Shown piece by piece: positions 27,801-64,000 of a DNA stretch of 64,000 nt. Source of the stretch: Massalongia carnosa (taxonomy: Eukaryota); assembly GCA_965645245.1 (NCBI GenBank), contig OZ287068.1, positions 3,472,001-3,536,000 on the forward strand, read 5' to 3'. A model generated the notes under the pieces. That model had not been told where the DNA came from and did not search any database. It saw nothing but the letters and a program-made list of their open reading frames with translations. Each line of letters opens with the position of its first letter. Positions within the stretch are counted from its first letter, which is position 1. The position numbers were made by a program, and so were the translations under genes.

Positions 27801-28536
27801 CAATCGGACTCCACTGTTATGGGCTGCTAGGAGTGGGCACGAAGCAGTGGTGAAGCTGCTGCTTACAAATGAGGATATTGACCCTGACTTCAAGGACAAA
27901 GACAATCGGACTCCACTGTTATGGGCTGCTAGAAGTGGGCACGAGGCAGTGGTGAAGCTGCTGCTTACAAAGGAGGGTGTTGACCCTGACTTCAAGGACA
28001 AAGACAATCAGACTCCACTGTTATGGGCTGCTAGGAGTGGGCACGAAGCAGTGGTGAAGCTACTGCTTACAAAGAAGGGTGTTGACCCTGACTTCAAGGA
28101 CAAAGACAATCAGACTCCACTGTTATGGGCTGCTAGGAGTGGGCACGAAGCAGTGGTGAAGCTACTGCTTACAAAGGAGGGTGTTGACCCTGACTTCAAG
28201 GACAAAGACAATCAGACCCCACTGTTATGGGCTGCTAGGAGAGGGCACGAAGCAGTGGTGAAGCTGCTGCTTGCAAAGGAGGGTGTTGACCCTGACTCCA
28301 AGGATATTTTCAGTGAGACGCCACTGTTATCCGCTGCTAGATTTGGGCACGAAGCAGTGATGAAGCTACTGCTTACAAAGGAGGGTGTTGACCTTTACTC
28401 CAAGGACAAACGTAATCACACTCCACTGTTATGGGCTGCTAAGTCTAGGAACAAAGCAGTGTTGAAGCTACTGCTTGCAAAGGAGGGTTTTGACCCTGAC
28501 TCCAAGGACGAAGAAAACCGGGCTATACTGTTATGA
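24803..28536 (+). pseudogene. NLR-like gene: helical (SesA/HeLo-like) N-terminus, NACHT, ~18 ankyrin repeats; disrupted
   Basis: MSFGISVGDFI, LFCPGIPGAGKT, IIIDALDEC, MFLLAQLH. Introns 24913-24962 and 25942-25995. Lesions: TAG 25105, apparent deletion ~25250, 4-bp net deletion ~27540, TAG 27718. Confidence 0.88.
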
Positions 28537-28585
28537 GCTGCTAGGAATGGGCTGCTAGGAATGCGCACGAGGCAGTGGTGAGGCT
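26789..28585 (+). repeat. 102-bp (34-aa) ankyrin repeat array, about 18 units
   Basis: QTPLxxAAxxGHEAVVKLLLAKEGVDPDSKDxxx starts every 102 bp (one spacing of 98 bp). Confidence 0.95.
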
Positions 28586-40992: not shown

Positions 40993-43900
40993 TCTATATA
41001 GTACTGAAGTAGTAATAATGCGGAGAGGACGTCGTGCGGATAGGACCAAAAATTCCCCTCTTGCCTCCACCGTATTACATCGTTTTACTTCGTAAAACTT
41101 GGTAAATCAATTGATCCCATAGATATAAGTCCGTATCGCGAAAACTACGTTCTTTTACGTTCGTTGTGGTCTGCGAGAGGTGGTCGTTGTTCGCGTTTTT
41201 CATGTTTTAATGTTCCGGAAAACCACGCTAAATCCGTCCGTTCAATGAACCTGCGAAAACCCTCGATTCGGTTTAACGTAGTCTTAATTGGGTTAACGAT
41301 AATCTTTACGGAGTACACCAACGCGTTATTTCATTTCGTGTTTGTATTCATTTACAATTATCTGATCTCTTCAAACCAACAGCAACGACTACCGCTATGT
41401 CTTTGCAGCCTAGCTCTTCTCCGCGAGAAATCGTTTCTCGACTTCCCATTCCGTTACGTCAATCGTGTTCTCCCCGTAGACCCCATAATGAAGTGAGTTC
41501 TCCGGAAAATCCTCCCGCAAAACGCGTTCGTCTTATCTTACGACCACCGAAACGTTCTGTTCGTCTTTTCCTGCGTCCGCCTGCTCCTCTAAGAAGTTCG
41601 ATTGTATCTCCTGTCACTTCTCCGTCTTTGCAGAGTTCGCCTGATAGTTCAATGACGAATTCCGTTTCTCCCGTATCATCGGCTTTCCATTCGCCAAGTC
41701 CGCCAAATCGAAATGATTTGGAGTTGGAAAATCCGAACATTTGGGAAGAAATGCTGCTCAACGAAGCAGAAGCGGGTCAGGACAATCACAACCGAGCTCG
41801 CGGTTCCGAAAGGTCGAGTTTCGGACATATTTCTCCATCCGTTGTGAGTTCCAGGCCTGTTTCTCTACCTGCTAATCTATGTGAATCACGAGGTAACCGT
41901 CGAACACGTCGTCGCGAGCGGACTATTGCAGCCCGTGATCGTGCGGCTGCAAATCGTGACTTTCCTGCCGCATTTAAATGTCAGTACACCTTGGAATCCG
42001 CGATACAACGAGTTCAACATATGACAGATTATTGCAGACACTGCGGTGCGTGGCATTGGGAAACGGAAGCTGTTCAGAGTGACAGAAGACGAGATCGAGT
42101 ATACGAATCCTGTTGCAAGCGAGGTGATGTGGTGCTACCACCGTTTCGGCCTCCTCCTGATTTTTTGCGGCAACTGTTAATCGGAGAAAATTCTCGAGGT
42201 CGTGCATTTCGCAAAAATCTGCGGAAATACAACTCCGCGTTGACATTTACCTCCGTAAATTATAAGCCTGATCGTCGACTCCCTCGCAATCGGCGTAGTC
42301 CGATATGTTTTCAAATTCATGGAGAATTATATCATTTGCAAAGTCCTTTTGACCCCGTTGATGATTCACCTCGCTTTGCTCAATTTTTTTTTTACGATCG
42401 CGCCGAAGCAACTGCATTTCGTACTCGACAACACGCAGAATGGGATCCAGATATTGTGCGACGATTGACAGATATGTTGCATGATTTGAGCCCCTTTATC
42501 GGACTCTACAAGACCGCCAGCGAGGCCTTACGAGAGAATGCGGCCACTACCGATGATTTGCGAATTGTTCTCAATCCGCAAATGCGATTGATCATGGAAG
42601 CGGGGGCGGATCGACGACGCAGTAATCTTCCCACCAGCGACGAGATTGCCGGTATTATTCCTGATGAATACGGAGAAACTCGCAAACGCGATATAATTTT
42701 AACGGAACGTGTTGCAGGAGTTACGGGAACTTCTTTGAAGCGGATTGATCAAAATCATGCGGCTTATATGCCTTTACATTACGTTCTTTTATTTCCGCAT
42801 GGCGAACATGGCTGGGATTGGAGTATGCGGCTTCGGTCCAATGCTAGAGAAAGAGAACGAGATCGTTTATGTCAACGGGCCTTTTACAGATATCGTTTGC
42901 ACACCCATCGAAATGAATTCTCTATAATGCATCATTGTCAGCGATTGTTTCAACAATATTTAGTTGATGCGTGGGCCAGTTGCGATCTTAATAAACTGCA
43001 ATGGTTACGTGAAAATCAAAAAACGATTAGAGCGGAGCTGTATAACGGACTCGCGGACAGTTTGCGGCGGGATGAAGTCGATTCTGCAGCGACGTTAAGA
43101 AAGCGATTTATTCTTCCTTCCACATATACGGGCGGAGATCGGTTCATGCAGCAATTGTTTCAGGACAGTATGGCCTTGGTTCGTCATTTTGGGCGGCCGG
43201 ATTTGTTTATTACGTTTACCGCAAATCCTAACTGGCCGGAAATCAAGGAAGCATTAAAGGACTTTCCTAGACAAACCACAACGGATCGACCGGACATGTG
43301 GCACGCGCTTTTCGACTGCGACAGAGCAGTTTGTTGAAGGAATTGAAAAAGGACAACATTTTCGGTCGATTTCGCGGATATGTATGGAACATCGAATATC
43401 AAAAACGAGGATCACCGCATATGCATTTGCTGTTATTTCTACATCCGCATGATCGTTTTATGGATGCGGATCCTATTGATCAAATAATTTCCGCCGAACT
43501 GCCAGATCCTGCTCTTGATACGGATGGAAGTTTAAGACAGATCATCATTAAACAAATGGTTTACGGTCCTTGCGGAGCTGCAATGCCTACCGCGTCCTGT
43601 ATGCAAACCGAATCCGGATCTCCCACCTGTCCCAAGCGTTATCCTCGCCAGTTTCAGGAAACAACTGTTGTTGAAGAGGACGGTTATCCGATATATCGTC
43701 GCCGCAATGATGGTCGTACCTGGGAGGTTCCGATGAGTGGTGGTCGGGTTTTTCGTCGCGACAATCGCTGGGTGGTTCCGTATAATCCGTATCTTTCTCG
43801 CAAATATGAAGCTCATATTAATGTCGAGGTCTACGCGACCGTCAAAGCGGTTAAATATATTCATAAATATATTTACAAAGGCGAAGATCGAGCTACTGTG

Positions 43901-46431
43901 TAGATTGACGGATTTGACGACGAAATCGCGAGACATTTAAACGGTCGTTATATCGGTCCCACTCAAGCCGCATAGCAGTTGTGGGAGTATCCTTCGCACG
44001 AGGAGTTTCCTGCGGTTTATCATCTTCCGATTCATTTGCCGGATCAACAGTCCGTATATTTCAATGCGGATGCGGATCTTATTGATCTGCATAACACTTT
44101 AAACAGATTCGTTTCAAAATTAATGGTATTTTTCGAGTATAACAGACTTCATGACGACGGTCGCGACTTGTTGTATCAAGATTTTCCGAATCATTTCGTT
44201 TGGGAACCCAAGAAAAAATGTTGGCAATCTGGACAACGTGGGTTCGCGGTTGGTCGTATTTATGCCTGCAGTCCTATGGCGGGCGAGAAATATTATTCAC
44301 GGATGCTGTTGACTGTTGTGCCTGGACCGCAATCATTTGAGAATCTTCGCACTGTTGACGGAGTGATTTATGCAAGTTTTCAAGCCGCTTGCAGTGCCCG
44401 AGGTTTGTTGGAAGATAATCAGGAATGGTTCAGTTGTTCTGCGGAAGCTGTGCGATTTTCTTCTGGACATTCATTGCGGGCGTTATTTGGAACAGCTTTA
44501 GTTCACGGACGTGTTACGGATCCCACGGCCTTAAGGAATCGATACGCGAACGATATATGTGACGATTTGCCTCATCGATTACGATCTATGATTGATATCC
44601 CTGACGATTTAACGACTCCGCATTTGGATTACGGACTGTATTTATTAAATAAAGTTCTTTCGGATTTGGGGAAATTTCTGCAGGATTTTAATATGCCTTT
44701 GTTTGTACATGTTTGGGGTCGGAGTACTGGAAATCCATTAATTGCGGGTGAAATGACTTACGATTTCAATGAAGAACCGACGTTACGAAATGAACGATAT
44801 ACTCAACTGAATGCGGATCAGAAATACTGTTTTGATACCATTGTTGCGGGAGTTAGAGATTATTCTAGAACAGCGCATTTTTTTGTTCATGGACCTGCAG
44901 GAACAGGTAAGACTTTTTTATATAAGACTCTTTGCAATCATTTTCGGGCGGAGAATAAAATCGTTCTTCGCGTTGCGTCTTCCGGCATTGCGGCTTTACT
45001 TCTTCCTGGCGGATAGACTTCACATTCCCGTTTTAAAATTCCTTTGATTTTAAATGAGGACAGCATGTGTAATATCACCCGCAACATGCATTTACACGGT
45101 CTTTTGCAACGCATAACATTAATCATTTGGGATGAGGTGCCAATGCAATACGGACCTATTAGGCAATGACGATCTTTTCGGAGGTATTCCGATGGTGTTA
45201 GGCGGAGATTTCGCTTAAATCTTGCCTGTTGTTCTCCGTGGAAATCGGCAAGCCATCGTTGCGGCGAACATTCAAAAAACTTTTCTGAGGCCACGATTTC
45301 AAAAACTGTTTTTGCGTCAAAACATGCGAATTCATAACGGAGTCGCCAATGATGCGTTTGCGGACTGGATCGGGAAAACGTCTTATGATCCTGCTTTTTA
45401 CGGTCGTGTTGAGCTACCGGAACAAGTCAATCAATTGAACAACTTAGACAGTTTCATAGACACCGTTTTTCCTTCGGATCGCATGCGGCAAACTCATCTG
45501 GATGCGGATTTTTTCGCAAGTCGAGCAATTTTGACTTTGCGAAACGATATCGTCGCGGAGTTAAACGGTGCAATACTGAATAAATTGCAGGGCGATTCGC
45601 ACACCTTAAATTCCGTTGATCAAATAGAAAACGATACGGCGCAGGAACGAGGAGACTTTCTTCCTCCCGAGTTTTTACGGACCTTGCAAAAATCGTCTTT
45701 ACCACCTTCACAATTGCAACTGAAACTTAGAGCTCCGATTATTTTGTTGCGGAATTTATATCCCAAACTTGGTCTCTGTAACGGCACCCGATTACGTCTT
45801 ACTCACATTTCGCGGACCTGTCTAGAGGGAAAGATTTTGGGAGGAGAATTCAACGGTGAAACGCGATTAATTCCCCGGATTCTTCTTAATACCACGGAAG
45901 GCGAGTTGCCCTGGATCATAAGTCGCAAACAATTTCCTATACGATTCTGCTTTGCTATGACTGTCAACAAGTCGCAAGGTCGATCATTGGACACGGTAGG
46001 AGTCGATTTGCGAGCTCCTCCTTTTACTCATGGTCAGTTATATGTGGCATTATTTCGAGTTACGGATGTGTCTCGATTGTGTATGTTGTTTTCGGAACGA
46101 AATGACGGAAAAACGGATAACATTGTATATCCGGAAGTAATTCTGCGATCGCAACATGACATGATAACTCATGTTCCTACGAATTCTACTGTAAGTTTAT
46201 GATGATATACGGTATCTATGTCACTTAGAAATTGTAATCAATTGCAAAATAGACAGCAACTTTATTGTGTTATAAAAAATATACCGTTCGGGTAATCAAG
46301 TGTGACAGCTGCGAGTATTAAATTAAATAGATAATACTGTAGTTTTGACTTTACGACCTTTTTCAAATTGTATCGATCGTAAAAACTTGAAAACGGTTCC
46401 AAAATCTCAGTTCTGTAATGGCATAGTCTCG
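40993..46431 (+). mobile_element. Autonomous-type Helitron, decayed
   Basis: 5' TCTATATAGTACT; Rep-helicase; 3' ATCTCAGTTCTGTAATGGCATAGTCTCG|T matching the end of the upstream unit. Confidence 0.9.
41397..46202 (+). pseudogene. Helitron Rep/PIF1 helicase with frameshifts and stops
   Basis: Zn finger CRHC..ESCC; Rep motifs LFITFTANP, EYQKRGSPHMH, YIHKYIYKG; helicase GPAGTGKT, WDEVPM, GGDF, AMTVNKSQG, HGQLYVAL. Lesions near 43295, 43901, 43973, 45014, 45150-45218. Confidence 0.93.
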
Positions 46432-48899: not shown

Positions 48900-51290
48900 A
48901 TATGCTACAAGGCCGGAATAGCTTCAAGGGATTTTGAGTACGTAATTATATAGAGGGCTGAATTATGTGATCATCAACGAAGGAATAAACCTCGATGCTG
49001 ATCCATATTACACATGGGTCTCGAGGCAAAATTCTGCAAAGCAACCGAAGTCTAGAAAAGCCCATCGATTCAAGTTCTTAAAAAGCCGTGCTCAGACTGA
49101 CAAACTTTCCGATGGCGCTCAAACGATATCCGTCACTGCTGAAGTCATGTGGCTTCGAGACTTGCTGCCGAACTTCGCTTCAAATGCTCGAGTTGCGACA
49201 TACAGCTACGAGTCAGATTCTCGAAAAGCAGACATCAAAACAAGTCTCCGCAAATGTGGAGAGCAGTTTCTTAATGTTCTTTATCAGAATCGGTCATGTG
49301 AAAAAGTTAGTAAAGCTATCACGGGAATTCTTCGTTTGTCCTTACTAATAGTCTATATAGCAACGTCGTCGACCATTAGTTTTTATTGGACATAGTCTTA
49401 GAGGTTTAGTTATTAAGCAGGTCGGTCTGGCTTGACTTTAAATTTTTTAATTACTAACGTCCTCTTCATAGGCTCTATATTAGCCAATCATGGTGAATAT
49501 TTTAGAGATATTAAACTGTCCACGACTGGGATTATCTTTCTTGGAACGCTACATCAAGGAAGTGACGTTGCAGTATCCGGTGCATGGCTTGCTCAAGCAG
49601 TAGGACATGATAAGACGTTACTAGATCTTTGAAAACAAACAGCCCTACCCTTCATGATGAAGCGCAGGACTTTGAAACAAGTTACGTCAATGTTGATATC
49701 GTTTGTTTTTATGAAGACAAGAAAGGGTCATATGGTCTTGGCAGACTCAGGTCTGATACTCTCTGTTTTCACGCTCAACTGGGATGAAAGTTTATGACTT
49801 ATAGCTCGTTGATTATCAATCAGCTTCTCTACTTAGCAAAAGGATCATATACCTCACTACGGATCACTCGGGGTTGAACAAATTCAATGGCCCTGAAGAT
49901 GAAAATTTTCTCTTGATAAAGCCAGAGGTTCAGAGAATGATTCAGAATGCGTCTCAAAGAGCGGAGGTGTAACGGTTCGACCATGCGTGGTGCGGACGGC
50001 AGGACCTACAGCGAACATAGCATGAGTCCCAGTTATAGTAGAATAGAGTTTGGTCTGCGGACTAAGTATTGTGCCTTTTGGTCGGGAAGGACAGGTGGCG
50101 CAATGGTAGAAATCTATTCACTTTCTCGCTTCGTCACAGGAGGAACAGTATCACTGTATGATTCAATTTTCTTACTCTAGACTTCACGTTTTTTAAGGCT
50201 TCTCTGACTTTTTGTCAGCACGTGTTGAAATCAGCAAAAAAAAACCGTTCCACGTTGAATTCAGTCTTCAGGGCATTCTTGTGATGAATCATTATGTAGC
50301 CCGAGACGCAGAGATGACTCGATTGACTCAGATTTTACTTCCCACCACCACAGATTCAATGCGTCGTAAAGTATTCATCCTCCATGGACTTGGCGGGATT
50401 GGAATGACTCAGCTCTCCGTTGAATTCGCTCGACAGCATCACAAGAACTATACCGCAGTCTTCTGGGTCGACGGCTCGACTAAGGAGAGACTAAAGCGAA
50501 GCATTGCTGACCTTGCCGGTCGACTACCTCAGCATCAGATATCTGAAAATAGCAGAAATTATTCACAGGAGAAAAGCACGAAGAAGAACACGGATGTGAA
50601 TGAAATCGTTAAAGATGTGCTTAATTGGTTATCACAGTCATCAAATGATCAATGGCTGCTAATTTTTAACAACGTGGATCAAGAGTTTTCCGTGTCAATT
50701 GGAGATCCGGAAGCCTTCAATGTTCAAGATTTTTTCCCAACGGCAGATCAAGGATCTATCCTTATCACTTCTCGACTGGCCAGTTTATGGCATTTGGGTA
50801 CGGATATGAAAGTGAAACCGATCAATCAATTGCAAGGAGAAAGTATTCTTAGAATTGTCTCGGGCATTATATGCACGGTCAGTGCAATGAGAAGCATACT
50901 TGCCAGGCGTTATCTGACACCTGAGACTTATTAGGTTTCTTCGAGATTGTCAATCTACTTCATGGCCTTCCTCTAGCGATTAATCAAGCCGGCTCATACA
51001 TGCGGAAAACAGGCACAAACGTGTCTGAGTATATTAAATCATATAATCACACATGGGCAAAATTAATGAAAAAGCAGAATCGCTCCACAATTCAAGCATG
51101 TACATATCGTAGTGTTTTGACAACATGGATGTTATCTTTCAATTATCTTCAGCAAATTAAGAACGCAGCGAACATTTTAATGTTGTGGGCGTTTCTCGAC
51201 AATCAAGAACTCTGGTACGAGCTCTTTGCGTCTGCGCTAGATCATGATATTGTCGACATGATGCCTGATTGGTATATCAGATGTGCAGAT
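48900..51290 (+). pseudogene. NLR-like pseudogene: SesB-like alpha/beta hydrolase + NB-ARC, truncated at a LINE
   Basis: WLRDLLP..ARVATYSY, FIGHSLRGL, GIIFLGTLHQGS, LHGLGGIGMTQL (P-loop K replaced by M), WLLIFNNVD, GSILITSR, GLPLAINQAG. Start coordinate approximate. Confidence 0.85.
49968..50138. mobile_element. 171-bp solo LTR inside the SesB-NB-ARC gene
   Basis: TGTAAC...GTCACA termini with TSD GGAGG at 49963-49967 and 50139-50143. Confidence 0.85.
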
Positions 51291-51647
51291 TGATTGATTG
51301 ATTGATTCATACACCGATCCAAGGGCCGAAGGCCCTTATGCGGGAGTGCTAAACTACATCGGGGGGTGTCCCAGGGGATGGGTATCTAAGTCTGCTGAGG
51401 GCAGAATTGCTGCACTAAGCGCTGAAAGTACAAAAAATACAAAAACTCTTTTAGCTGTACAAGGGGTTGCGAATGCAAGGAAGAGGGAAAAGAAGACACG
51501 AACAGAGGGACACACCGCTTGAGACAAATCGATAAATAGAACTCCAACGCCACCGTCCTGGGCCCCTGTGCTTGGTGTTGATACATGCAAGCCCTACCAT
51601 AGTAGAGACTATTCTGTGAGCGGGATAAAACAAGAGCCGGCCTGCCG

Positions 51648-54600
51648 TTAACTCGTGGATTGTTCGGTTGCTATCCTCACGTCTCCAAATTGGCCGAGGA
51701 GACGTGAGGATAGCATGAATCTAGATGCTGCCTTGGCCAGTCTGGGGGTGCTAAAAATTTCTTGGAGATCGAACACCTTCCGGCCTATCCAGATAGTCTC
51801 CATGCGCAATCGATGGTGCCTGACGCACTCCAGAAGCACATGGTGAACTATTTGATAACCGAAGCCGCATGGACATTCGCCCGTTTCGGTGCGGCCTATA
51901 TCTGAGAGATACTTGCGTAAACCAATCTTACCTGTTCTCATCTGCACCAGGATGGAACTCATTGACTTTTGAAACCTCTGGTAGAGCTGCAAGACCTTGT
52001 TAGTGTGCTGGGGGAGGAGCTTTTTCGTCATCTGTCCGCGTTTTTCTGCCTCCCAATCCCCAGCCCATTATTTGCTGATCATTGTCCTCATGTTGCGTTT
52101 TATCGCCGACTTCACTGTGTGTCCGAGGAAGTCGAAGTGGGTGATGGAGGGACTCTGGCCAGGTTCTAACCAGCCTGATGCTTCTTTTGCTGCTTGGTCT
52201 GCTATCTCGTTGCCTTCTACTCCCATATGCCCAGGTATCCAGCAGAGTCTGACTCTGGCCTGCATCTCCCGGCATGCGTGGAGTTTTCCAATGATCTCGC
52301 GTAGTATGAACTGACCTGATTGAGTTCCGGGGTCGACTACTGATTTGATGGCTGATTGATTATCTGCAAAAACCGTTATTATCTCCCCTTGCCATCGTGC
52401 AATAGCCGCCGCCAGTCCCAGGTCGATGCCCACTAGTTCCGCGAGGTAAACTGTGGCTTCTTTGTTCGTTCCAAGGCGGGTTCCTACCCGTGTGTTGTCG
52501 CTGGGGATGACCGCTGCCGCACCAACTCCGAAGGGGTTATCACTCCCATCCGTGTATATGACTATTTGGTTCGGCTCTGATGTCATCTTATCATGCTCTT
52601 GATTGCTTCCTCTTTACCGGAAGCAATGTGCGTTTCGGGGGGAGACCACCATGGTTCCACTATGAATGGAAGAATGACCTCTAACCGCCAGGGTTGAGGG
52701 CATTTCCCCAAAGTCATTAAGCGGGACTCTAGCTTAGCTAGAGGGCTCCAGTATCGATAGTGGGAGTCCGCTTGGCTTGTCCAGGCGCGGATCTCACGTA
52801 TTATGGCGTAAAGGGGGCTTGAACGTATGCGCAGTAGTGACTCGTTCACTGGCTGCTCCATGCGTTGCCGGCCAGGCAGGAGGTGAAGTTCCATATCCAA
52901 GGCCGGGCCCGAGGTTGTTCTAAATACCCCTGAAATGATCAGTGCCGCCCGTCGCTGAATAGATCTGACGGCTTTGAGCACGGCGGTTGCTTGCGTGATA
53001 GTCCCGTATCCGCCCTCGGGAACATACCATGCAGAGCATCCAAAGGTGAGTTGCGGTAGTATGGTGGCTTGATAGATCCTTCGAAGGCTCGCAAGATTGG
53101 TGCCCCATGTGGAGCCCGCAAGGCTGCCTAGGGCCCCCAGTCTCTTTGAGGTTTTGGCTTCCAGTTTCCTTAAAGAGGCGTGCCATTTGAGCTTGTCGTC
53201 GAATGTGGCGCCCAGGTAGGTGGCGGTATGCTGTGGCTTGATGGTTTTGCCCGCTAGGGAGATAGCTCTCTCCGGGGGGTTCAAATCCCTCTCTGAGGGT
53301 CCTTTGATAAAGTGCAAGAGCTGGAATTTGGCCGGGGCAAATTTGGAGGCGTATGTGTCCGCCCATTTCTGCTCCCTCGTCATGAACGATGCTTCGAGAT
53401 TTCTACAGTTCTGTTCTGCTGAAGTTCCAATAATTAATTTGGATATGTCATCGACATAGCCCAAGTTCATCTTTTTGGGCCCTTCCTCTTCCATAAGGTC
53501 GGCGTTGTAGAAGAGATAAAGAACAGGAGATATAGGGGATCCCTGAGGGACTCGAAAGTTCGTGGTGAATGGTTGCGAGGTGTATTCGGGCATGGCGATG
53601 GTCGTTTTCCTTTCCTGAAGGAAGCTTTCGATCCATTTAGCTATGTTACCGCCTATTCTTCTCTTCCGTAGGTTATGCAGTAGTCTTTCGTGGGATACGT
53701 TATCGTAAGCACCCGAGATGTCCAGCATGAGCACTGTGGCCACTTCGTTGTTAAGCCAGGCTGCGTGGATGGCCTCTAGGAGCAGATGGAGGGCGTGTTC
53801 GGGTGATCTAGCTCGCCTGCCGCCTATATGGAGTCTGGGGAGTAGGCTCTCGGTCTCCACCGCGTGATTGATTCTGGTTGCAATGATCTTCTCCATAGTC
53901 TTACCTAAAGTGTTGAGCAAGGCTATGGGTCTGTATGAATTCGGCAAACTGTAGTCGGCCTTAGCTGGTTTACTGAGAACCACCGTGGTGGATTCTCTAA
54001 AAGCATTGGGGTGATGACCCAGTTCCCAGCTGGCGTTATACAGAGCTACAAGTGTGGGCATGATGAGCGGTGACACATCTCTGAGGATTCTATTAGGCAG
54101 TCCGTCGGGGCCTGGGGCCGAGAGTGGTGCTGCCTTTGTGATGGCTTTAGTTATTTCCCGAGCTGAGATGGGAGCAAATTGGATTGGCTCTGGATAGTGA
54201 TAATCGGTGATGTCTTCAAGATTGGTGGCGTCCGGGATAGGAAAAAACTGTCTGCGAAGCAGTTCAGCCTTGCCTGAGGCCTCCGTCACTTTGGAGCCAT
54301 CGCTTTTCATTAGGGTTGGGGTGAAGGCTTGGAATGGGGTCGACATGTTCTTAGCCCATTTCGCAAGCTTCCAGAGACCATCTGGAGTGCTGGTGGCCTC
54401 CTCTACCATGTGCCTATGTGTTTTCTTGAGAGCTTTTTGTACGATTTTGTTTTTGCTGTTTCTCGCCTCTCGGTAGGCTTCCCAGTCTTCCAGAGAGCGC
54501 GTTTCCTTATGCTTGCGCCTGAGACGTCTGCATAGGGTGACTGCCTCTTTGCATTCCGGGGTAAAGCCAGGTTTTGAATGATTGCACCCTCTAGAAAGTG

Positions 54601-55498
54601 GGACTGCTGTCTCCTCTGCGTGCTGGATAGCTTCAACTAACTCATGGGCCAAGTTGTCGAGTTCTTGAACTGTGCTCACGCTCCTAGGTGCCGGGAGCTT
54701 GTCTGTCATCGTGTTTAGTAGCTTTTTCCCATCAGTCTTAGACCACATACGAGAGGACCTTATGGCCCTCTTAACTGTGGTGATATCGAATGCTGTGCCA
54801 ATGGGTTAGTGATCTGAGTCACTATCCAACTCTCTTCTCACATCGCACATGAGTACGGCTGAAGCCACTGCGGGGGTTGCGAACGTTAAGTCTATCGTCC
54901 TCTATGCTAATCTATGATCGTATGTTATGGTGCCAGGGGGGAGCAGAAGTTCTAGCTCGCTTTGATCGAGAATCTCCAGTAGTTGTTTGCCTCCGGATGT
55001 TGATGATGGTAGTCTTCGCCAGTCCATAGGGGATGGTGAAGATTGAAGTCCCCTACCACTATGTGTTCTCTCCCCACCTCTAGCGCCTTATTAGGTCTGA
55101 CAAGGTGCTGTAGTTTCCCTGAGAGGGGGAGGGATTGTAGATGTTATGGATATTGATGACTCGCTGGGTTCGCCAGGAAATTCCAAGTGCAAAGTCATCA
55201 GATCGGGAGAGTGGAAGGTTACCTTCCAAGAGGCGCTTGCTATGTCTTTGTTGACGAACATGCATACTCTCGGAGGGAGCTCTTGTTCTCCTGTTTCGGG
55301 GGGATAGAGAAGGTGAAAAACATTTTTGACCGGATTGTGCGTGGTGTGTTGATAGGGGTTCCCCGCCCAGGGTTCCTGGATGGCCAGGATGCCGTATTTC
55401 ATGGTTTCCTCCCTGCGAAGGAAGTCCGCCATGACAGTGTTCTTGGATTTGTTGCAGTTGTACTGAAGTATGGACAGATAGTGGGTGTATTCACTCAT
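51648..55498 (-). pseudogene. LINE ORF2 (APE endonuclease, RT, RNase H, C-terminal knuckle), frameshifted
   Basis: ILQYNCNKS, AIQEPW, SDH, YRPIALLNTLGK, VPQGSPISP, YVDD, IYTDGS, WIPGHMGVEGNEIAD, CPCG..IVHHVLLEC. Confidence 0.92.
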
Positions 55499-57183
55499 AG
55501 TTCCTCTTCTGTCTGAGTACTGGGCTGCAAGCGACGGGTTGCCGATCTGGTGGTCATTGAAGAACTATCGTCGTTCTCCTTATCGCTCAAGACCTCCACA
55601 GCCTTCGAGGAGGGTTTCTTCTTTCCCTTCTTAGAAGCTGCTTGTGCCATGCTCCTGTTGGTAGAGCTGGGGTTGTCTGCCAGGGTCTCTACCTCCCCAT
55701 CCGCCCGCTTCTTCCGCTTGCGGAGAGTTGGCACGGTTTGCCAATCTTTCTCTCGTATAGAGCCCGTTCGAGGGCCCTGTTCCACCTGGGTTGAGGCTGG
55801 GGTCACCTCACTGCTTGTCGTGACCGTCGGCGTGGTCGATGCCAGCGGACTGCTCCGTTCTTGTTCCTGACCATTTAGGGTCTCCCTTGAGGAGGCCCTG
55901 AGAGGCCAGAAGGGTAGAGCTTCTTCTTTGGCCCGCTTCATTCGGGCCTTTTCCTTCTTTCGCTCCGGGCAAGACTCTGCGCTTGCCCCGTGGCCCTCCT
56001 TGCCACAAGCATTGCATTTGAGAGTGACCGATTTGCAATCGGTCATGTAGTGACTTTCGGAACATTTGAAGCATGTTTGATGCTTCTGTCGGCAAGCATG
56101 GCTCGTGTGACCATACTTACCGCACCGGAAACATTGCCTAAGCCTGGCCTCCGGAACATGTCTTTCCACCGCGAAAGATCTCCCATCCAAATATAGCTGC
56201 GAGGCCAAAATGGCGTTGCAGTCTAATTCGTTCTCAAAGTATACCACCATGGATCTAGTTGTGGCTCCTACCTTACTCGTGCGGGACAACCATTCTACTC
56301 CTGTTACCTTATTCCTAACGGGCATATGTGACTTATTTTCCTCCCAGAGGCGTTCCTTGATATCTGTCATGCTTAGATTAGCCGGTACAAAGTGCGCGAT
56401 TAAGCCGAAGCTTGGCTGTATTATAGTAGCTTTGCTCGATAGCCTGATGGCCCATCGGGTGTCTTTTCTTAGGCGTTCCGTGTCTGAGGCGTTGTTGGCT
56501 ATTACCTGTAGGTCTCCGCTAGGGAGGACCCTTGCTGCTATTGCTACGGCTGCTGCCGTGGCTGTGCCATTGGAAATAGGGGGGGCGGGAGCGTTTTGAT
56601 TGGTCGGAATTCTCGTGTTGTTATGATCCTTTAACGCGTTAGATATTGCCGCGTTGATTCTGTCTTTGAGCGCTGAGGAGGCCAGTTTGGCCAGATCCTT
56701 TGCTATGGCTTCGTTGTTCAGTTTGACGACGATTTCACGAGCTTTCTCTTCTAGTATAGGAGCGGGGATGGACGTCCCCGAAAGCGTAGAGATCGTTGGG
56801 GCCGAGGCAGCAAAGGCTGCCCGTTCTGCCCAGGTCATCGTCCTCTTGTAGCCAGTAGTGGCTGCGGAGGAGGTAGTGGGTGTTGTGCGGGCGGTGTCTT
56901 GCTTGCGCTCGACATAGGTGACTTTAGTGAGCGTTTGCTCTGTAGTGTTCTTTATTTGGTTGATGGTAGCTTGGAGCTGATCCATCGTGGGCTGGTTGCG
57001 CATCTTCTCCAGTAGGCTGAGCATACTAGAGAGTAACAGGGTGTAAGACTGAACCTTCATAGGTCTTTGCTTCTGATATGCCTCGCAGTTAGTTAAGTTA
57101 ATAAGCACATTGGTGAGGAAGTGACCTAGTGAATCGGGGGGGGCGGCGTTGGGCACGACAAAAGAGCTCCCCATGGTTGCCAC
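55495..57183 (-). CDS. LINE ORF1 (gag-like, three Cys/His knuckles)
   Basis: CFRCGKYGHTSHAC, CFKCSESHYMTDC, CNACGKEGHGASAESC. Its stop overlaps the ORF2 start (ATGA). Confidence 0.9.
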   Translation of the reverse strand: MATMGSSFVVPNAAPPDSLGHFLTNVLINLTNCEAYQKQRPMKVQSYTLLLSSMLSLLEKMRNQPTMDQLQATINQIKNTTEQTLTKVTYVERKQDTARTTPTTSSAATTGYKRTMTWAERAAFAASAPTISTLSGTSIPAPILEEKAREIVVKLNNEAIAKDLAKLASSALKDRINAAISNALKDHNNTRIPTNQNAPAPPISNGTATAAAVAIAARVLPSGDLQVIANNASDTERLRKDTRWAIRLSSKATIIQPSFGLIAHFVPANLSMTDIKERLWEENKSHMPVRNKVTGVEWLSRTSKVGATTRSMVVYFENELDCNAILASQLYLDGRSFAVERHVPEARLRQCFRCGKYGHTSHACRQKHQTCFKCSESHYMTDCKSVTLKCNACGKEGHGASAESCPERKKEKARMKRAKEEALPFWPLRASSRETLNGQEQERSSPLASTTPTVTTSSEVTPASTQVEQGPRTGSIREKDWQTVPTLRKRKKRADGEVETLADNPSSTNRSMAQAASKKGKKKPSSKAVEVLSDKENDDSSSMTTRSATRRLQPSTQTEEEL

Positions 57184-57407
57184 AATGCAGCCACAACAGA
57201 AGGGACAATATAACTTTCGGCCAAGATAGCTACAGAGTCGGGGAGCAATTCTACGTGATCACAATGACTATTGGGGGCTTGTATGGGTAACGAATGCAAT
57301 TTCTAGTGTTAGCTAAAAAGTGCGAAAGTTTTGAGGATGGATTTACCATGTTTAATCATGTATCCATGCCCGCTAGGTCGGCTAAGCGAGGCCAACCGAG
57401 CGAAAGT

Positions 57408-58069: not shown

Positions 58070-61000
58070 ATGACATCAACACAGGTCGCACGGCCGACCA
58101 CGTAAGTACACCTAACCCTCGTTTGCGACAAGGCTCTGCTGACTTTGCGCCTTTGCTGAAGAAATGACCTTTGGGCAAGTGCGAAGGCTGAGATGAGTAA
58201 GGAAGACCAAAAAAACATAGACTTTGACCGCTCCGACAAGCTTGATATCTTGTCTGATCTACACCAAGTTACCGATAAGGCAAGGCAAGAGTGTATCAAG
58301 AGAAAATGGCGATACACGAGAACGAGTGGAGAGACGGTCATCTTCGTGGACCTATTTGGCAAGATCTTCAAGTGGATTAATCTTTTTAAGCAATTCGGGG
58401 ACATGGCTGTTCAGTATGATCCGGTTCATGCTGCGCTTCCATGGGCTGGTATTCGATTTCTCCTGCAGGTTTGTGATGTTGAAAATAGCGAAAGATATTA
58501 CTAAAACCTCTATAGATTGCCGTCAATGATTCCGATAAATTTGATTTCGTGGTCGAAAGTGCGGCTTCGATTGGGGAAATCATTTGTCGATATGCTGTAT
58601 TCGAGGACGTCTACCTACAGTACCCATCCACTACTGCTAATGAACTTCGGAGAGCTCTAGTTAGATTTTATGCAGCGATTATGATCTATTTATCGAAGGT
58701 TAAGAGCTACTTTGAACAGAACTCTGCAGGTTAGTTTGGCATTTCAATAACAGAATATATATTGATGACATTTACAGTGCGTATATTGAAGAGCGGACTT
58801 CTGGGAAAGTCAGACATTGAGTCATTCTTTGATGCCATTGCTACCGCCCAAAAGACCGTTGATCGTTGTTCCTGTGTGGTTGGAATGCAAGGTAAGCTTG
58901 CTCGATAGGACTTATACTTTCTGAATTCTTTACTAATGAACCTAGAACAAATAAATCAACGCTTGGACTTGAAAAGACTTCTCGAGTGTATCGATGGCCC
59001 AATAGAACGAATGAGTGCGGATTTAGTAAACATTAAAGATGATTTTGAGTGTAAGTTGTTAAAATCAACATCAGAGCCTCAACTCATGAGCCTTAGCATC
59101 AAAGAGAAATAAGATTCTAGACTGGATGTCCCCCGAACCATATAGACAACATCATAATCAGACCAAGGAAGAAGTGTTACAGGGTACTGGACAATGGCTG
59201 CTTTCGAATCCAGTTTTCAAAACGTGGAAGAAAGAAAGTGTATCTTCTATCTTGTGGCTTCATGGGATTCCAGGTTCTGGGAAGAGCAAGCTGGTGTGAG
59301 TACTGTACAGCTATTTCGGAAAGATAAATGCTTACGGTTAACATAGATCTATTGTGATTGAAGATGCCAAAAAAGCCTTCGATAATGGCCAAAGCCCAGC
59401 TCCAGTCTTTTTCTACTGTTCACGAAACACCGCTGAACCTGCGCGTTCAAACCCTGATGCAATCGTAGCGACTATCGCACGGCAATTGTCTAGCCTTCAA
59501 CCGGGACACCCTCTACTCCCTCCAACGGTGGCAGCCTACAAGAAACGAGATATGGAGGGATCCGCCTCGGAATCATTAGGTATAAATGAGAGTCGTCTAC
59601 TAATCCTCCAGCTTGTCGAGCATTATCAATTAACAACCATTGTGATCGATGCGCTTGACGAGTGCGACCCAGAGAAACGGACAGTTCTTTTGGAAACCTT
59701 ACAATCAATTCTTCAAGATTCCTCAAGCTTGGTGAAGATCTTTGTGTCGAGTCGAGATGATCAAGATATTGTTTTGTCTTTACGAGACTACCCTAATCTT
59801 GAGCTCTCATCTGAAATCAACAAGGATGATATCTCGTCGTTTATTACCGCTGAGACCGACAACCTTATCAAGAGGAAGAGGCTACTAGCTTTAAGCACCA
59901 ACAAGGAGAAGTTGAAGATCGAGATTATTGAACAGGTCACAAAAAACGCTGATGGGATGTCAGTACTGTCCAGCAATGCGAGCCATGTTTATGCCCCACT
60001 AATGTGATCACCAGGTTCCGGTGGGCTAGCCTCCAACTGCAAAGCTTATGCAGCGCGCGGACTGATGAAGCTATTCGGGAAAGGTTCGGGCAACTGCCAC
60101 CAAAGCTGGAAGACCTTTATCTTGAGCTATACGAGAAGTTGACCAAAACCTCAGCAAACGCCGATCGCGAAGTGACTATCAACGCTTTCAGCTGGCTCCT
60201 CTGCGCCCAGAGAAAGCTGACATCTAGAGAATTTCTCGCGGCAATGTCAACGACCCCACGGCGACAGTTCAGCCAGCTGACGAAAGAGCATATTTTGGAG
60301 ATGTGCTCTAACATGGTTGTTTTCGATTCAACACTCGATACGTTTCGATTTGCCCATCTGTCGGTGAGAGAATTTTTGGAGAAGCGGCCAGAATATACTA
60401 GAGAAGCGACAAACGCCCTGGCTGCTGAGACATGTCTCTTAGACGTACTAAGTGCTGCCAACAACCCAGCAACAAAAAGACTTCTTTCTAAATACGGACA
60501 AGATTCATTAAACTCAACTCTTTCACATGACCTTAGACACTACTCGAATGTCTACTGGGCTCCGCATTGTCAGCTAGCTGCTAAACAAAGGACTGCTGAT
60601 GTGCTTAACGACCTCCTTTGTCATTTTCTCTCCAACGAATCGGACTCAGGATCCGCTGTTGCTGTATGGGCTAGCCTGATTAAAGAATGGCTTGACGATT
60701 ACTCGATTAAATGGGAACTAAGGCATAAGTTTGAAGATACTAGCGCTAAAGATGGCAGAGCTCTCTTTGTTGCCTCCTGCTTTGATTTGCAGGAAATTGC
60801 TGGAATCTGGGCAAATTTCGGAGACAACATAGTGAACACTCAGGGTCGGACACCTTTGGAAATTGCTCTTAAATATGGTAGTTGTGATGTAGTTTCGATC
60901 TTGCTGAAAAATAAGCTTACTATAATATCAGAAGAGGTGGTGAAGGCAGCGGCGAGAAATTTCAGGGATGGGAAAGAGGTGATGACGCTCTTGCTTGAGC

Positions 61001-62634
61001 AGCGCGGGGCAGATGTGATGATTACGGAAGAGGTGGTGAAGGCAGCGGCGGGATTCGGAGGGAAAGAGGTGATGACCCTCTTGCTTGAGCAGCGCGGGGC
61101 AGATGTGATGATTACGGAAGAGGTGGTGAAGGCAGCGGCGGGAAATTTCTGGAATGGGAAAGAGGTGATGACGCTCTTGCTTGAGCAGCGCGGGGCAGAT
61201 GTGATGATTACGGAAGAGGTGGTGAAGGCAGCGGCGGGAAGGTTCGGGAATGGGAAAGAGGTGATGACGCTCTTGCTTGAGCAGCGCGGGGCAGATGTGA
61301 TGATTACGGAAGAGGTGGTGAAGGAAGCGGCGGGAAATTCCTGGAATGGGAAAGAGGTGATGACGCTCTTGCTTGAGCAGCGCGGGGCAGATGTGATGAT
61401 TACGGAAGAGGTGGTGAAGGCAGCGGCGGGAAATGAGGAAAATGGGAAAGAGGTGATGACGCTCTTGCTTGAGCAGCGCGGGGCAGATGTGATGATTACG
61501 GAAGAGGTGGTGAAGGCAGCGGCGGGAAATTCCAGGAATGGGAAAGAGGTGATGACGCTCTTGCTTGAGCAGCGCGGGGCAGATGTGATGATTACGGAAG
61601 AGGTGGTGAAGGCAGCGGCGGGAAATGAGGAAAATGGGAAAGGGGTGATGACGCTCTTGCTTGAGCAGCGCGGGGCAGATGTGATGATTACGGAAGAGGT
61701 GGTGAAGGCAGCGGCGGGAAATGAGGAAAATGGGAAAGAGGTGATGACCCTCTTGCTTGAGCAGCGCGGGGCAGATGTGATGATTACGGAAGAGGTGGTG
61801 AAGGCAGCGGCGGGATTCGGAGGGAAAGAGGTGATGACGCTCTTGCTTGAGCAGCGCGGGGCAGATGTGATGATTACGGAAGAGGTGGTGAAAGCAGCGG
61901 CGGGAAGGTTCGGGAATGGGAAAGAGGTGATGACGCTCTTGCTTGAGCAGCGCGGGGCAGATGTGATGATTACTGAAGAGGTGGTGAAGGCAGCGGCGGG
62001 AAATGAGGAAAATGGGAAAGGGGTGATGACGCTCTTGCTTGAGAAGCGCGGGGCAGATGTGATGATTACGGAAGAGGTGGTGAAGGCAGCGGCGGGAAAT
62101 GAGGAAAATGGGAAAGAGGTGATGACGCTCTTGCTTGAGCAGCGCGGGGCAGATGTGATGATTACGGAAGAGGTGGTGAAGGCAGCTGCGACATGCGGGC
62201 AAGATGGGGTCTTAAAAATAATCGAAGAAAAGTTTAAGATCTCCCCTTCTAAAGAAGAATGGTCGATCGCCCAGTTTTATAACGCAGCAAAATTTGGAAA
62301 GGCGGATACAATCCAGAAACTACTAGCAGAAGGGGTCAAACCTGATCTAAAAAATTCTCGGCATGTGTCTCCACTTTGGATTTCCGCAGCAAATGGCCAC
62401 CTTAGAGTAGTTCAACTACTACTTCGTACTAAAATTGTCGACGTCAATGCGAAGAGTATATATGGGCGGCCTCCTATCTTTTGGGCAGCAGCAGAAGGTA
62501 ACGAAAATATCGTGAGACTATTGCTGACAGCAGGGGCAGATCGTACTCTCGAAGATATAGATGGAAAAACTCCGCTGTCGGTGGCCAAGAAAAATGGACA
62601 TGACAAGATTGCAAAAATGTTGTCTGGTGGGTAA
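58070..62634 (+). CDS. Apparently intact NLR-like protein: helical N-terminal domain, NACHT, 13 near-identical 30-32-aa repeats, C-terminal ankyrin repeats
   Basis: Seven GT-AG introns (58102-58161, 58469-58515, 58730-58777, 58892-58945, 59051-59096, 59296-59346, 59959-60014) give one frame. AALPWAGIRFLL, LWLHGIPGSGKS, VIDALDEC, GMFRWASLQL. Confidence 0.88.
60931..62190 (+). repeat. 96-bp (two 90-bp) tandem coding repeats EEVVKAAA[loop]GKEVMTLLLEQRGADVMIT
   Basis: 13 full units plus a terminal partial unit, almost invariant outside a short loop. Confidence 0.96.
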
Positions 62635-64000
62635 AAATGCAATGGCCCAGTTGAGAGAAGCTTCTTCATTGTTTATCGGGTTTCGGTGACGATCTCCTTC
62701 ATAATGATACGTCGTCTTGAGAAGCGACAGAGTATCTAGAGATCCTGTTAGAAAAGTTCAATTATGCTTGATCTGTCTCATTTGCTCGCACCGTGATGGC
62801 TGAACTTCTGACACTTATTGATGCTTGTACAACAGAAAATGTCTATCGCCCTTCAAACTGATGACAAGCCTTGTGACCGGCTCAGGCCGATGACATGAAG
62901 AGAGAGATGGAAAACAGTCCATATTCAGTTATACGCAACGAATGCGGCTCTGAGATGAAGTAAGACAATAAGACTTTAGATTGAAAGACAATCGATTTCA
63001 ATATCAGACGCAAATGCGCATTTGACCTTGATCATATCACGTCAGAGAGTTCGATGTGAAGGAAAGCTATCCTTCATTTCGACAATTCAACTAAACGATT
63101 ATTTGTCGTTGAGGTTCATATTATGCATGACACGAATTCCTTCTTGATCGTCAGTCGACGAGCTTCACATCTGATTGAAACATGGCAAGAGAAGGCAGCT
63201 ATTTCAGAAGATGAGCGAAAGGTCTTGTTAACCGATTAGACCACACTAATTGGTAGGTGGCCTGCCAATATCACCACTAATAGAAGTGTCACTCGGTTAG
63301 CAAGTGTTGCACTTAGTGAATGGCTGGCTACCGAGTACGCACAAAAGGTGATGGGATAAGATAAAATAGATATTTAGCTAGAGATGATTTCTATCATCAA
63401 CAACCATCCTAGATAAACCAGATCAATTTATTAAATCCAAAACGAGTCTCCTTTAGAACGTAAACCTACCTAACAAATAAGCTGGAAAGCTTACGCATAT
63501 CTAAGCGATAACCAGCTTGATAGGTCTAGACTCTGTCGTTGACAGTCCTGTTTCTCCTGTTGATCAGCTATGTGTGACGAGTGCTTTCAGCTCCTGAATC
63601 AGGAGCTGGAAAAGTTAAGCAGGTCCCGATATGGGAGATGAAGAACTTCTTCGCTCTTTACGCCTTTCTGCCTGGCTTCAACGCCTACCAAGCTAACAAG
63701 CAGGTTGCACTACTTTTTGAATCACATTCAATACTGCCCCACACACATTGCTTCCTCATGAAAGAAAGATCCCATAAGATACCTTGTGTATAAATATTCT
63801 CATACTAACGTTGGTACAGTGTGTCTCATCGTGAACATACTAGAAACTTCAGCTGTCTCATTCGCAGCAACTGCACCTTTCCAGTCATCTTATGAATTCG
63901 TCTCATTCGCCCCGACACGCTCTCTCATAGGCTGCTCAGCCTAGCTCACCTATCTCTCCTGCGATTTCAATTGTTCAGTCTGCGTCATCTGCTCCGTCCG

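What the first reader, a model, noticed from the sequence alone, without database searches (positions are those of the whole stretch)
58070..62634. Intact NLR whose sensor is a 32-aa repeat scaffold with one hypervariable loop
Seen: 13 units nearly invariant at DNA level except a loop reading RNFRD, GFG, GNFWN, GRFGN, GNSWN, GNEEN, GNSRN, GNEEN, GNEEN, GFG, GRFGN, GNEEN, GNEEN. Loop length also varies by two codons, and pairs recur (units 8-9 and 12-13). The repeat lacks the TPLH ankyrin signature, while classical ankyrins flank the array. All seven introns splice in frame. Inference: a modular, recombination-diversified receptor using a less studied repeat class (DUF7104-like by recall), with one variable loop per repeat setting specificity.
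Basis: partly seen in the sequence, partly recalled or inferred. Interest (0 to 1): 0.75.

Follow-up and report, generated by a model that had tools for sequence, protein, structure and literature searches.

The report
Fungal immune receptor with shuffled loops
An intact fungal immune-type receptor gene builds its sensor from stripped-down ankyrin repeats that differ mainly at two loop residues each, and near-identical copies near chromosome ends carry the same loops in different orders and numbers, which makes a simple recognition code testable.

Summary
Observation confirmed. The eight-exon model gives an unbroken 1,400-aa NLR: Goodbye-like/DUF7708 head, NACHT, winged helix, ankyrin cap, 13 DUF7104 units, C-terminal ankyrins. 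The scaffold differs at 8 of 1,053 nt; variation sits at codons 13-14 of the helix1-helix2 loop. The repeat is not a separate fold: its model matches ankyrin domains end to end (Z 17) but lacks the beta-hairpin. The gene is one of 16 copies (94-97% identical; one may be an assembly duplicate) with 1-47 units, all within 230 kb of contig ends; three copies replace the head with an amyloid-like motif facing a hydrolase gene. The same two positions are the most variable in 60 homologues from other fungi, and alleles differ in loop order. It works like published high-internal-conservation fungal NLRs; no searched paper names DUF7104, and the scan had not noted it before. Against: ligand, expression and specificity are untested; non-repeat exons show omega about 1; 7 of 16 copies are broken; shared loops need not imply exchange between loci. 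New variant of a known kind; interest 0.55.

The parts
58070..62634 (+). NLR gene, 8 exons (58070-58101, 58162-58468, 58516-58729, 58778-58891, 58946-59050, 59097-59295, 59347-59958, 60015-62634), 1,400 aa
   Evidence: homology across all junctions
58162..58891 (+). Goodbye-like / NACHT_N / DUF7708 helical N-terminal domain (exons 2-4)
   Evidence: weak Pfam hits on single exons (NACHT_N E 9e-4, DUF7708 E 0.01); the 76% identical homologue P0016 passes the DUF7708 cut-off; Atlas features give DUF7708/Goodbye/NACHT_N clusters at 0.95
59264..59287 (+). Walker A (GIPGSGKS) of the NACHT domain
   Evidence: NPHP3_N match
59639..59662 (+). Walker B (IVIDALDE)
60157..60384 (+). winged-helix domain (PF22939)
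   Evidence: E 1.6e-6
60844..60915 (+). canonical-type ankyrin repeat capping the array on the N side
   Evidence: Ank_3, Ank_5
60925..62190 (+). DUF7104 array: 13 full units (11 of 32 aa, 2 of 30 aa) plus a last first-helix; variable loop at codons 11-15 of each unit, hypervariable codons 13-14
62281..62631 (+). C-terminal canonical ankyrin repeats
   Evidence: rmsd 1.0-1.5 A to DARPins and natural ankyrins for model residues 507-631
51288..57340 (-). LINE retrotransposon head-to-head with the NLR; the same insertion precedes 8 of the 15 other copies, so it was duplicated with the gene
63226..63522 (.). about 300-bp insertion downstream of the gene, absent from the 14 paralogues that share this flank

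Best explanation
An intracellular non-self sensor of the fungal NLR class with high internal repeat conservation. Shown: tripartite architecture with intact Walker A/B; a sensor made of ankyrin-fold helix pairs that have lost the beta-hairpin and carry an enlarged helix1-helix2 loop; nearly all amino-acid variation sits in two loop residues; arrays gain, lose and reorder units; the genome holds 16 copies near chromosome ends. Inferred: because the units stack in register, the variable residues line up along one edge and form the ligand-reading strip that the hairpin and first helix form in ordinary ankyrins; binding of a foreign or allelic protein releases the NACHT module, which oligomerises and activates the Goodbye-like head (or, in three paralogues, templates an amyloid motif onto a neighbouring hydrolase), ending in defence or regulated cell death. 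Unequal crossing-over and conversion among near-identical units keep the scaffold uniform and deal out loop variants; duplication of large chromosome-end blocks, some with a Starship captain, multiplied the gene.
For: Architecture and intactness. Fold: repeats-only model pLDDT 96.6, pTM 0.90, loop at residues 11-15 of each unit, no strand; all 50 listed VIA-align rows are ankyrin-repeat proteins or DARPin fusions, best Z 17.0, rmsd 3.0 A over 186 of 224 residues; Foldseek PDB and viral hits likewise. Focused variation: among 70 distinct internal 96-nt units, about 2.0 bits at codons 13 and 14, 0.9-1.0 at 11 and 15, at most 0.8 elsewhere; pN 0.47 at codons 13-14 against scaffold pN 0.022 and pS 0.074. 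Family-wide: in 60 of 113 homologues that had at least 6 scorable units, mean within-protein entropy peaks at 13 (1.77) and 14 (1.86); 13 and 14 are the top two in 31 of 60, and one of them is in the top two in 56 of 60. Shuffling: duplicated multi-unit blocks; 114 of 210 site pairs fail the four-gamete test; 5' and 3' flank trees disagree; eight records of one homologue with 100% identical flanks show eight loop strings; Botrytis alleles differ in number and order. Immune wiring: 17 of the 120 listed homologues carry HET, 9 NACHT_N, 4 an alpha/beta hydrolase, 3 PNP_UDP (hand count); three own paralogues have an amyloid-like N-terminus facing a hydrolase gene. Nonsense changes are fewer than chance among copies: 4 of 356 segregating changes, about 13 expected (my arithmetic).
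Against: No ligand, no expression data, no functional test. Non-repeat coding sequence between paralogues shows omega about 1 (0.93-0.99 pairwise; 0.93-1.33 by segregating sites), so amino-acid purifying selection on NACHT is not visible since duplication. 7 of 16 copies carry a stop, frameshift or lost C-terminus. pS at codons 13-14 (0.57) exceeds pN (0.47), so the codon-internal ratio does not show positive selection. Scaffold pS between loci (0.053) equals that within loci (0.049) and is not below flank pS (0.026-0.035), so shared loops can be inherited from the ancestral array without exchange between loci. Cell-death activity of Goodbye-like domains is described as unproven (PMC9815663, passages).
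Confidence: 0.68

Rival explanations
1. Passenger expansion: one ancestral receptor was copied along with transposon-rich chromosome-end blocks; today most copies drift, and array length and order change only because near-identical tandem units are unstable. The loops once mattered but the present diversity is not selected.
For: omega about 1 outside the array; 7 of 16 copies broken; shared blocks of 10 to over 60 kb that include the same LINE insertion; many 98-100% identical transposons.
Against: Scaffold is under purifying selection (pN/pS about 0.25-0.3); nonsense changes depleted; all array length changes in intact copies keep the frame; the same two positions vary across distant fungi. 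Exon sites segregate about twice as densely as intron sites (0.122 against 0.060), which drift alone does not predict.
Confidence: 0.15
2. The array is mainly a spacer or auto-inhibitory arm; recognition is done by the canonical C-terminal ankyrins, and loop residues tune curvature or contacts with the NACHT module.
For: Canonical ankyrins with hairpins cap the array; unit number ranges from 1 to 47; short units change the turn geometry.
Against: The C-terminal ankyrins are about 98% identical among copies while the loops swap between large aromatic, charged and small residues, the pattern expected of a binding surface; some homologues and one paralogue lack the C-terminal ankyrins.
Confidence: 0.08
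3. A nucleic-acid reader with a one-repeat-one-base code, by analogy with TAL effector repeats (analogy recalled from memory: two helices and a variable residue pair in the connecting loop).
For: One variable residue pair per helix-loop-helix unit, small vocabulary, free reordering.
Against: The fold matches ankyrins throughout; the array is acidic (77 D+E against 46 K+R in 422 aa); no TAL profile among Pfam hits at E up to 0.1.
Confidence: 0.04
4. Loop order and unit number in this window are assembly artefacts.
For: No listed contig of four short-read runs spans the array; one paralogue (C16) is 99.9% identical to another over 18 kb at a contig start without telomere repeat in its first 2 kb and may be a duplicate; matching ENA proteins are letter-identical to the loci and so probably not independent.
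Against: The contig has telomere repeats near both ends in a 25-contig, 52-Mb assembly, which points to long reads; the array is only 1.27 kb, frame-perfect, and has private variants (9 of 13 units are found in no other locus).
Confidence: 0.03

Closest known systems
High-internal-conservation (HIC) fungal NLRs: Podospora anserina het-d/het-e/NWD (WD40) and the ANK genes Pa_3_8560, Pa_2_8180, Pa_7_10370 (Dyrka et al. 2014, PMC4986451, sections 13 and 17 read; Ament-Velasquez and Saupe 2026, PMC13449251, abstract, part of section 6, section 12 and passages read)
   Same: NACHT NLR; near-identical repeats; repeat-number polymorphism; a few variable positions per repeat; identical units in different genes; association with transposons.
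   Different: Those papers give HIC ANK repeats as 33-36 aa with variable sites on the inner helix and beta-hairpin; here units are 32 or 30 aa, have no hairpin, and vary in the helix1-helix2 loop. Dyrka et al. state that Goodbye domains are very seldom joined to HIC repeats; here they are. P. anserina has no highly similar intact duplicates (attributed to RIP); this genome has 9 intact-looking copies at 94-97% identity.
Ankyrin repeat fold and designed ankyrin binders (ANK-N5C, PDB 4o60; PMC4308713, passages read)
   Same: Helix-pair stack superposes at rmsd 2.6-3.0 A over about 190 residues; weak sequence match, E 4e-7. The variable loop starts at the position that library randomised at the end of helix 1 (position 13; mapping read from the alignments).
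   Different: No TPLH motif, no hairpin between units; two extra residues in the inter-helix turn carry the variation.
Amyloid-signalling NLR/effector gene pairs (PP, sigma, HRAM motifs; Wojciechowski et al. 2022, PMC9815663, passages read)
   Same: Three paralogues have a short Gly/Asn/Val-rich N-terminus and a divergently oriented alpha/beta-hydrolase-like gene ending in a similar motif.
   Different: The window gene itself has the Goodbye-like head; the motif matched no Pfam family and the hydrolase has a frame break before its tail, unresolved.
Starship elements with NLR cargo (PMC13486527, passages read; bioRxiv 10.1101/2021.12.13.472469, search listing only)
   Same: Three paralogues lie 36-51 kb from a DUF3435 captain in a collinear 98-99% identical block that also holds a patatin-like/NB-ARC/TPR gene.
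   Different: No captain near the window copy; element ends and target repeats were not established.

Membership tests
Fungal NACHT NLR | central NACHT with Walker A GxxxxGK[ST] and Walker B aspartate | tested here: met
Fungal NACHT NLR | N-terminal effector-type domain | tested here: met
   Goodbye-like/DUF7708: weak on single exons, over cut-off in the 76% identical homologue, Atlas 0.95
Fungal NACHT NLR | C-terminal superstructure-forming repeats | tested here: met
Fungal NACHT NLR | ligand-triggered oligomerisation and cell death or defence output | not testable with these tools
   needs experiment
HIC NLR | repeats over 85% identical across at least 100 aa | tested here: met
   93% nt matches over 13.3 copies; scaffold 8 differences in 1,053 nt
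HIC NLR | repeat number and order polymorphism among isolates at this locus | tested here: inconclusive
   short-read contigs do not span the array; shown for paralogues and for homologues in other species
HIC NLR | positive selection at a few codons per repeat | tested here: inconclusive
   pN at codons 13-14 is about 20 times scaffold pN and 6 times scaffold pS, but below its own saturated pS; no site-model test run
HIC NLR | repeat exchange between genes | tested here: inconclusive
   9 of 87 distinct internal units are identical in 2-8 loci and flank trees disagree, but scaffold pS between loci is not below flank pS
DUF7104 (PF23397) | match over Pfam cut-off | tested here: met
   667.9 bits against 26.1, 14 stretches
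Ankyrin fold | stacked antiparallel helix pairs with ankyrin geometry | tested here: met
   predicted model, Z 17.0, rmsd 3.0 A, 186 of 224 aligned
Canonical ankyrin repeat | 33-34 aa unit with TPLH motif and beta-hairpin | tested here: not met
   units are 32 or 30 aa, 4-residue linker between units, no strand in the model
TAL-effector-like repeat | TAL profile or superhelical TAL fold | tested here: inconclusive
   not among listed Pfam or fold matches; no direct comparison made
Starship cargo | captain at the element's 5' end, defined ends, empty site | tested here: inconclusive
   captain shared by three paralogue blocks; none near the window copy; no ends or empty site shown

The most novel reading that the evidence does not exclude
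A genome-wide combinatorial receptor repertoire: a hairpin-less ankyrin scaffold in which each repeat contributes one residue pair to a modular, readable code for an extended ligand, with 15-16 chromosome-end copies (broken ones included) trading loop cassettes and swapping between a direct Goodbye-like output and amyloid signalling, and with Starship-type elements moving the copies. It would be a fungal counterpart of shuffled-repeat anticipatory receptors and a natural minimal binder scaffold.
Probability: 0.15. Interest if true: 0.9.

Novelty: new variant of a known kind. Interest (0 to 1): 0.55.

Why it matters
Ligands and specificity rules of fungal NLRs are almost all unknown. Here the sensor has an unusually simple variable part (two residues per 32-aa unit, about eight common loop types) and nature supplies many arrays on one scaffold, so loop-swap experiments could tie sequence to recognition directly. 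It also assigns a fold and a likely role to DUF7104, a repeat found with HET, NACHT, hydrolase and PNP_UDP domains across many ascomycetes and named in none of the papers searched, which suggests NLR surveys have filed it as ankyrin or left it unannotated. The head swap among near-identical paralogues is a recent, clean case of NLR domain shuffling.

Tried and rejected
Separate or TAL-like fold: the first fold search was dominated by the C-terminal ankyrins, so the array was folded alone; all listed matches were ankyrins and no TAL protein was listed. Discrete mobile unit around the NLR: the sharp 3' break at extended position 64657 is an insertion in the window copy; other copies continue in homology. 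Inter-locus conversion from synonymous distances: not supported. Expression: no RNA holder listed; laid contigs showed no intron-skipping joint and none spanned the array. ENA proteins P0001-P0003, P0008, P0015, P0018, P0078 are identical to own loci and were left out of cross-species counts. C16 was left out of the statistics as a possible duplicate of C10c; 53 of 113 homologues had fewer than 6 scorable 32-aa units and were dropped; the filter fixed Asn at position 12. Literature: no paper holds DUF7104, PF23397, an InterPro number recalled from memory, or the unit's opening motif; further searches found no description of this repeat; 12 of 17 supplementary files of PMC12258605 were searched without a hit, 5 were not searched, and the supplement of PMC13449251 could not be read, so a mention there is not excluded. 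Botrytis Bcvic1 is described with ordinary ankyrin matches and its paper does not name the two DUF7104 loci found here (passages). Earlier scan notes: none by sequence, place or the word DUF7104. No complex prediction was run, as no partner is known.
Full report
Observation. Seven GT-AG introns join eight exons from ATG 58070 to the stop at 62634 into a 1,400-aa frame with no internal stop. The first 835 residues align with annotated fungal proteins across every junction, at 76% identity with two gap positions for P0016 and 68% with none for P0076. The array at 60925-62190 has 13 full units, 11 of 96 nt and 2 of 90 nt; the 81-nt scaffold departs from consensus at 8 of 1,053 positions and the loops read as listed. 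Units 8-9 and 12-13 differ at 3 of 192 nt. Splicing is inferred from homology only: no RNA run was listed.

What the gene is. Pfam places a NACHT (NPHP3_N type), a winged helix, an ankyrin, 14 DUF7104 stretches and further ankyrins along the protein. Walker A and B are intact. The head matches NACHT_N and DUF7708 weakly exon by exon; the 76% identical homologue passes the DUF7708 cut-off, and its first 250 residues fall among DUF7708/Goodbye/NACHT_N clusters in the Atlas. It is a Goodbye-like NACHT NLR.

What the repeat is. A model of cap, array and C-terminal ankyrins has mean pLDDT 95.7 (alignment of 66 sequences); its fold searches were filled by the canonical ankyrins. Seven units folded alone give pLDDT 96.6 and pTM 0.90: helix 1 at residues 3-10, a loop at 11-15, helix 2 at 16-30, a four-residue linker, no strand. 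Against 48,161 representative chains, all 50 listed rows are ankyrin-repeat proteins or DARPin fusions, best Z 17.0 with rmsd 3.0 A over 186 of 224 residues; Foldseek agrees more weakly (best E 1e-3, TM 0.66), and the named viral matches are nearly all ankyrin proteins. Sequence search finds designed ankyrins first, E 4e-7, and Atlas features give DUF7104 then ankyrin clusters, with a low recognition score that makes this weak evidence. So DUF7104 is an ankyrin-fold unit that has lost the hairpin and TPLH motif. In the alignments the 30-aa unit keeps ankyrin turn spacing, and the 32-aa unit inserts two residues there. That turn follows position 13, one of the positions randomised in a designed ankyrin library (PMC4308713, passages).

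A 16-copy family. The own genome (52 Mb, 25 contigs) holds 16 matches to the unique part of exon 8 at 94-97% identity besides self at 100% (15 plus the window), and DUF7104 arrays only at those places. They carry 218 units, 1 to 47 per copy. All lie within 230 kb of a contig end, a zone of about 22% of the genome; the window's contig has telomere repeats near both ends. Nine copies look intact and seven carry a stop, frameshift or replaced C-terminus. One copy, C16, is 99.9% identical to C10c over 18 kb and may be an assembly duplicate; it was left out of the statistics. The copies share blocks of 10 kb to over 60 kb, eight of the other 15 with the same upstream LINE. Three lie 36-51 kb from a DUF3435 captain in a collinear 98-99% identical block that also holds a patatin-like/NB-ARC/TPR gene, a layout like Starships described in PMC13486527 (passages); no captain is near the window copy and no element ends were established.

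Two heads on one sensor. Three copies (C12, C20, and the neighbour at C2:3557k) diverge upstream of about window position 59028-59045 and instead have a short Gly/Asn/Val-rich frame. Facing it is an alpha/beta-hydrolase-like gene (Pfam only weak, E 0.02) whose tail has a similar motif. This resembles amyloid-signalling NLR/effector pairs (PMC9815663, passages); the motif matched no Pfam family, and a frame break before the tail is unresolved. Among the 120 listed homologues, all with DUF7104, 17 have HET, 9 NACHT_N, 4 a hydrolase and 3 PNP_UDP (hand count). The repeat therefore travels with known or suspected cell-death outputs.

Where the variation is. Among 70 distinct internal 96-nt units, entropy is about 2.0 bits at codons 13 and 14, 0.9-1.0 at 11 and 15 and at most 0.8 elsewhere; pN is 0.47 at codons 13-14 against 0.022 in the scaffold, whose pS is 0.074. 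In other fungi the pattern repeats: for 60 of 113 homologues with at least six scorable units, mean entropy peaks at 13 and 14, and one of the two is in the top two positions in 56 of 60. Eight records of one homologue with 100% identical flanks have eight different loop strings of 4-6 units; these come from metagenome assemblies and order could be mis-assembled, though one has a private loop. Botrytis alleles also differ in number and order. Within the genome, multi-unit blocks are duplicated, 114 of 210 informative site pairs fail the four-gamete test, 9 of 87 distinct internal units are identical in two to eight loci, and the 5' and 3' flank trees place C19b differently with full support.

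Results against. pS at codons 13-14 (0.57) exceeds pN, so the codon-internal ratio gives no proof of positive selection; the sites are saturated. Scaffold pS between loci (0.053) matches that within loci (0.049) and is not below flank pS (0.026-0.035), so the shared vocabulary can be inherited from the ancestral array without exchange between loci. Outside the array, omega among copies is about 1, which fits relaxed selection as well as a mix of positive and negative selection; yet nonsense changes are 4 of 356 against about 13 expected, and exons segregate twice as densely as introns. No short-read contig spans the array (one of the four laid runs is labelled lichen metagenome). The ENA proteins that match are letter-identical to the loci and are not independent.

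Mechanism. Most likely (0.68) an intracellular non-self sensor: a strip of variable loop residues binds a foreign or allelic protein, NACHT oligomerises, and the head or the amyloid-linked hydrolase executes defence or death. The steps from binding onward follow the general NLR model (PMC12258605, passages) and are not shown here; death activity of Goodbye-like domains is itself open. Rivals are passenger expansion with neutral shuffling (0.15), a spacer role (0.08), nucleic-acid reading (0.04; the array is acidic, 77 D+E against 46 K+R) and assembly artefact (0.03).

Comparison and novelty. It works like HIC NLRs of Podospora and meets their sequence definition. Dyrka et al. (PMC4986451, sections 13 and 17) report repeat-number polymorphism and selected sites in ANK and TPR arrays, 33-34 aa ANK units, and rare pairing of Goodbye with HIC repeats. 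Ament-Velasquez and Saupe (PMC13449251, abstract, sections 6 part 1 and 12, passages) report repeat exchange for WD40 and TPR, none seen among three ANK genes, and no highly similar intact duplicates. The principle is thus known. New here are the hairpin-less unit with loop-focused variation, its breadth across ascomycetes, the large near-identical family and the head swap. No paper in the library holds DUF7104 or PF23397; unread supplements may mention it. Earlier scan notes hold nothing on this sequence, genome or family. Verdict: real, new variant of a known kind, interest 0.55.

Noticed in passing
window 25277-28552 (+): A second NACHT NLR with a 102-nt (34-aa) canonical ankyrin HIC array of 17 copies; the frame stops at 27547 inside the array and resumes at 27721.
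   Followed up: partly
window 39188-40499: A long degenerate 23-bp tandem array with strong G skew; nature not examined.
   Followed up: no
window 41277-46202 (+): Helitron-like element, many copies in the genome.
   Followed up: partly
window 50197-50934 (+): NB-ARC-like fragment just before the LINE; the same context is found at C10c and C16.
   Followed up: partly
window 51288-57340 (-) and genome-wide: LINE family with many 97-98% identical copies and a 4.9-kb element at 100% identity; together with the substitution spectrum among NLR copies this suggests little or no RIP in this genome.
   Followed up: partly
window 61501-61545 and 61303-61347 (units 7 and 5): The SR, SW and SG loops differ only at the centre base of an 11-nt palindrome, so SR and SW are inversions of each other; template switching is a possible but untested source (read).
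   Followed up: no
L039:6643-8352 (G000 C12), also L031 and L035 regions: Amyloid-like NLR N-terminus facing a hydrolase-like gene with a similar tail; a remnant of the hydrolase also lies upstream of the Goodbye-type copy C2a.
   Followed up: partly
L079:2576-7560 (G000 C19:1484k-1489k): Patatin-like/NB-ARC/TPR gene with a 126-nt HIC array right behind the DUF3435 captain, present with different repeat counts on C11, C12, C13 and C19.
   Followed up: partly
L049:8670-10000 (G000 C2 right end): About 1.3 kb of unrelated-looking GC-rich sequence lies beyond the telomere repeat; similar overhang at the left end.
   Followed up: no
proteins P0011, P0029, P0135 and others: DUF7104 arrays also occur in HET-domain proteins with no NACHT match listed, for example Botrytis BCIN_04g00930, with allelic length variation.
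   Followed up: partly
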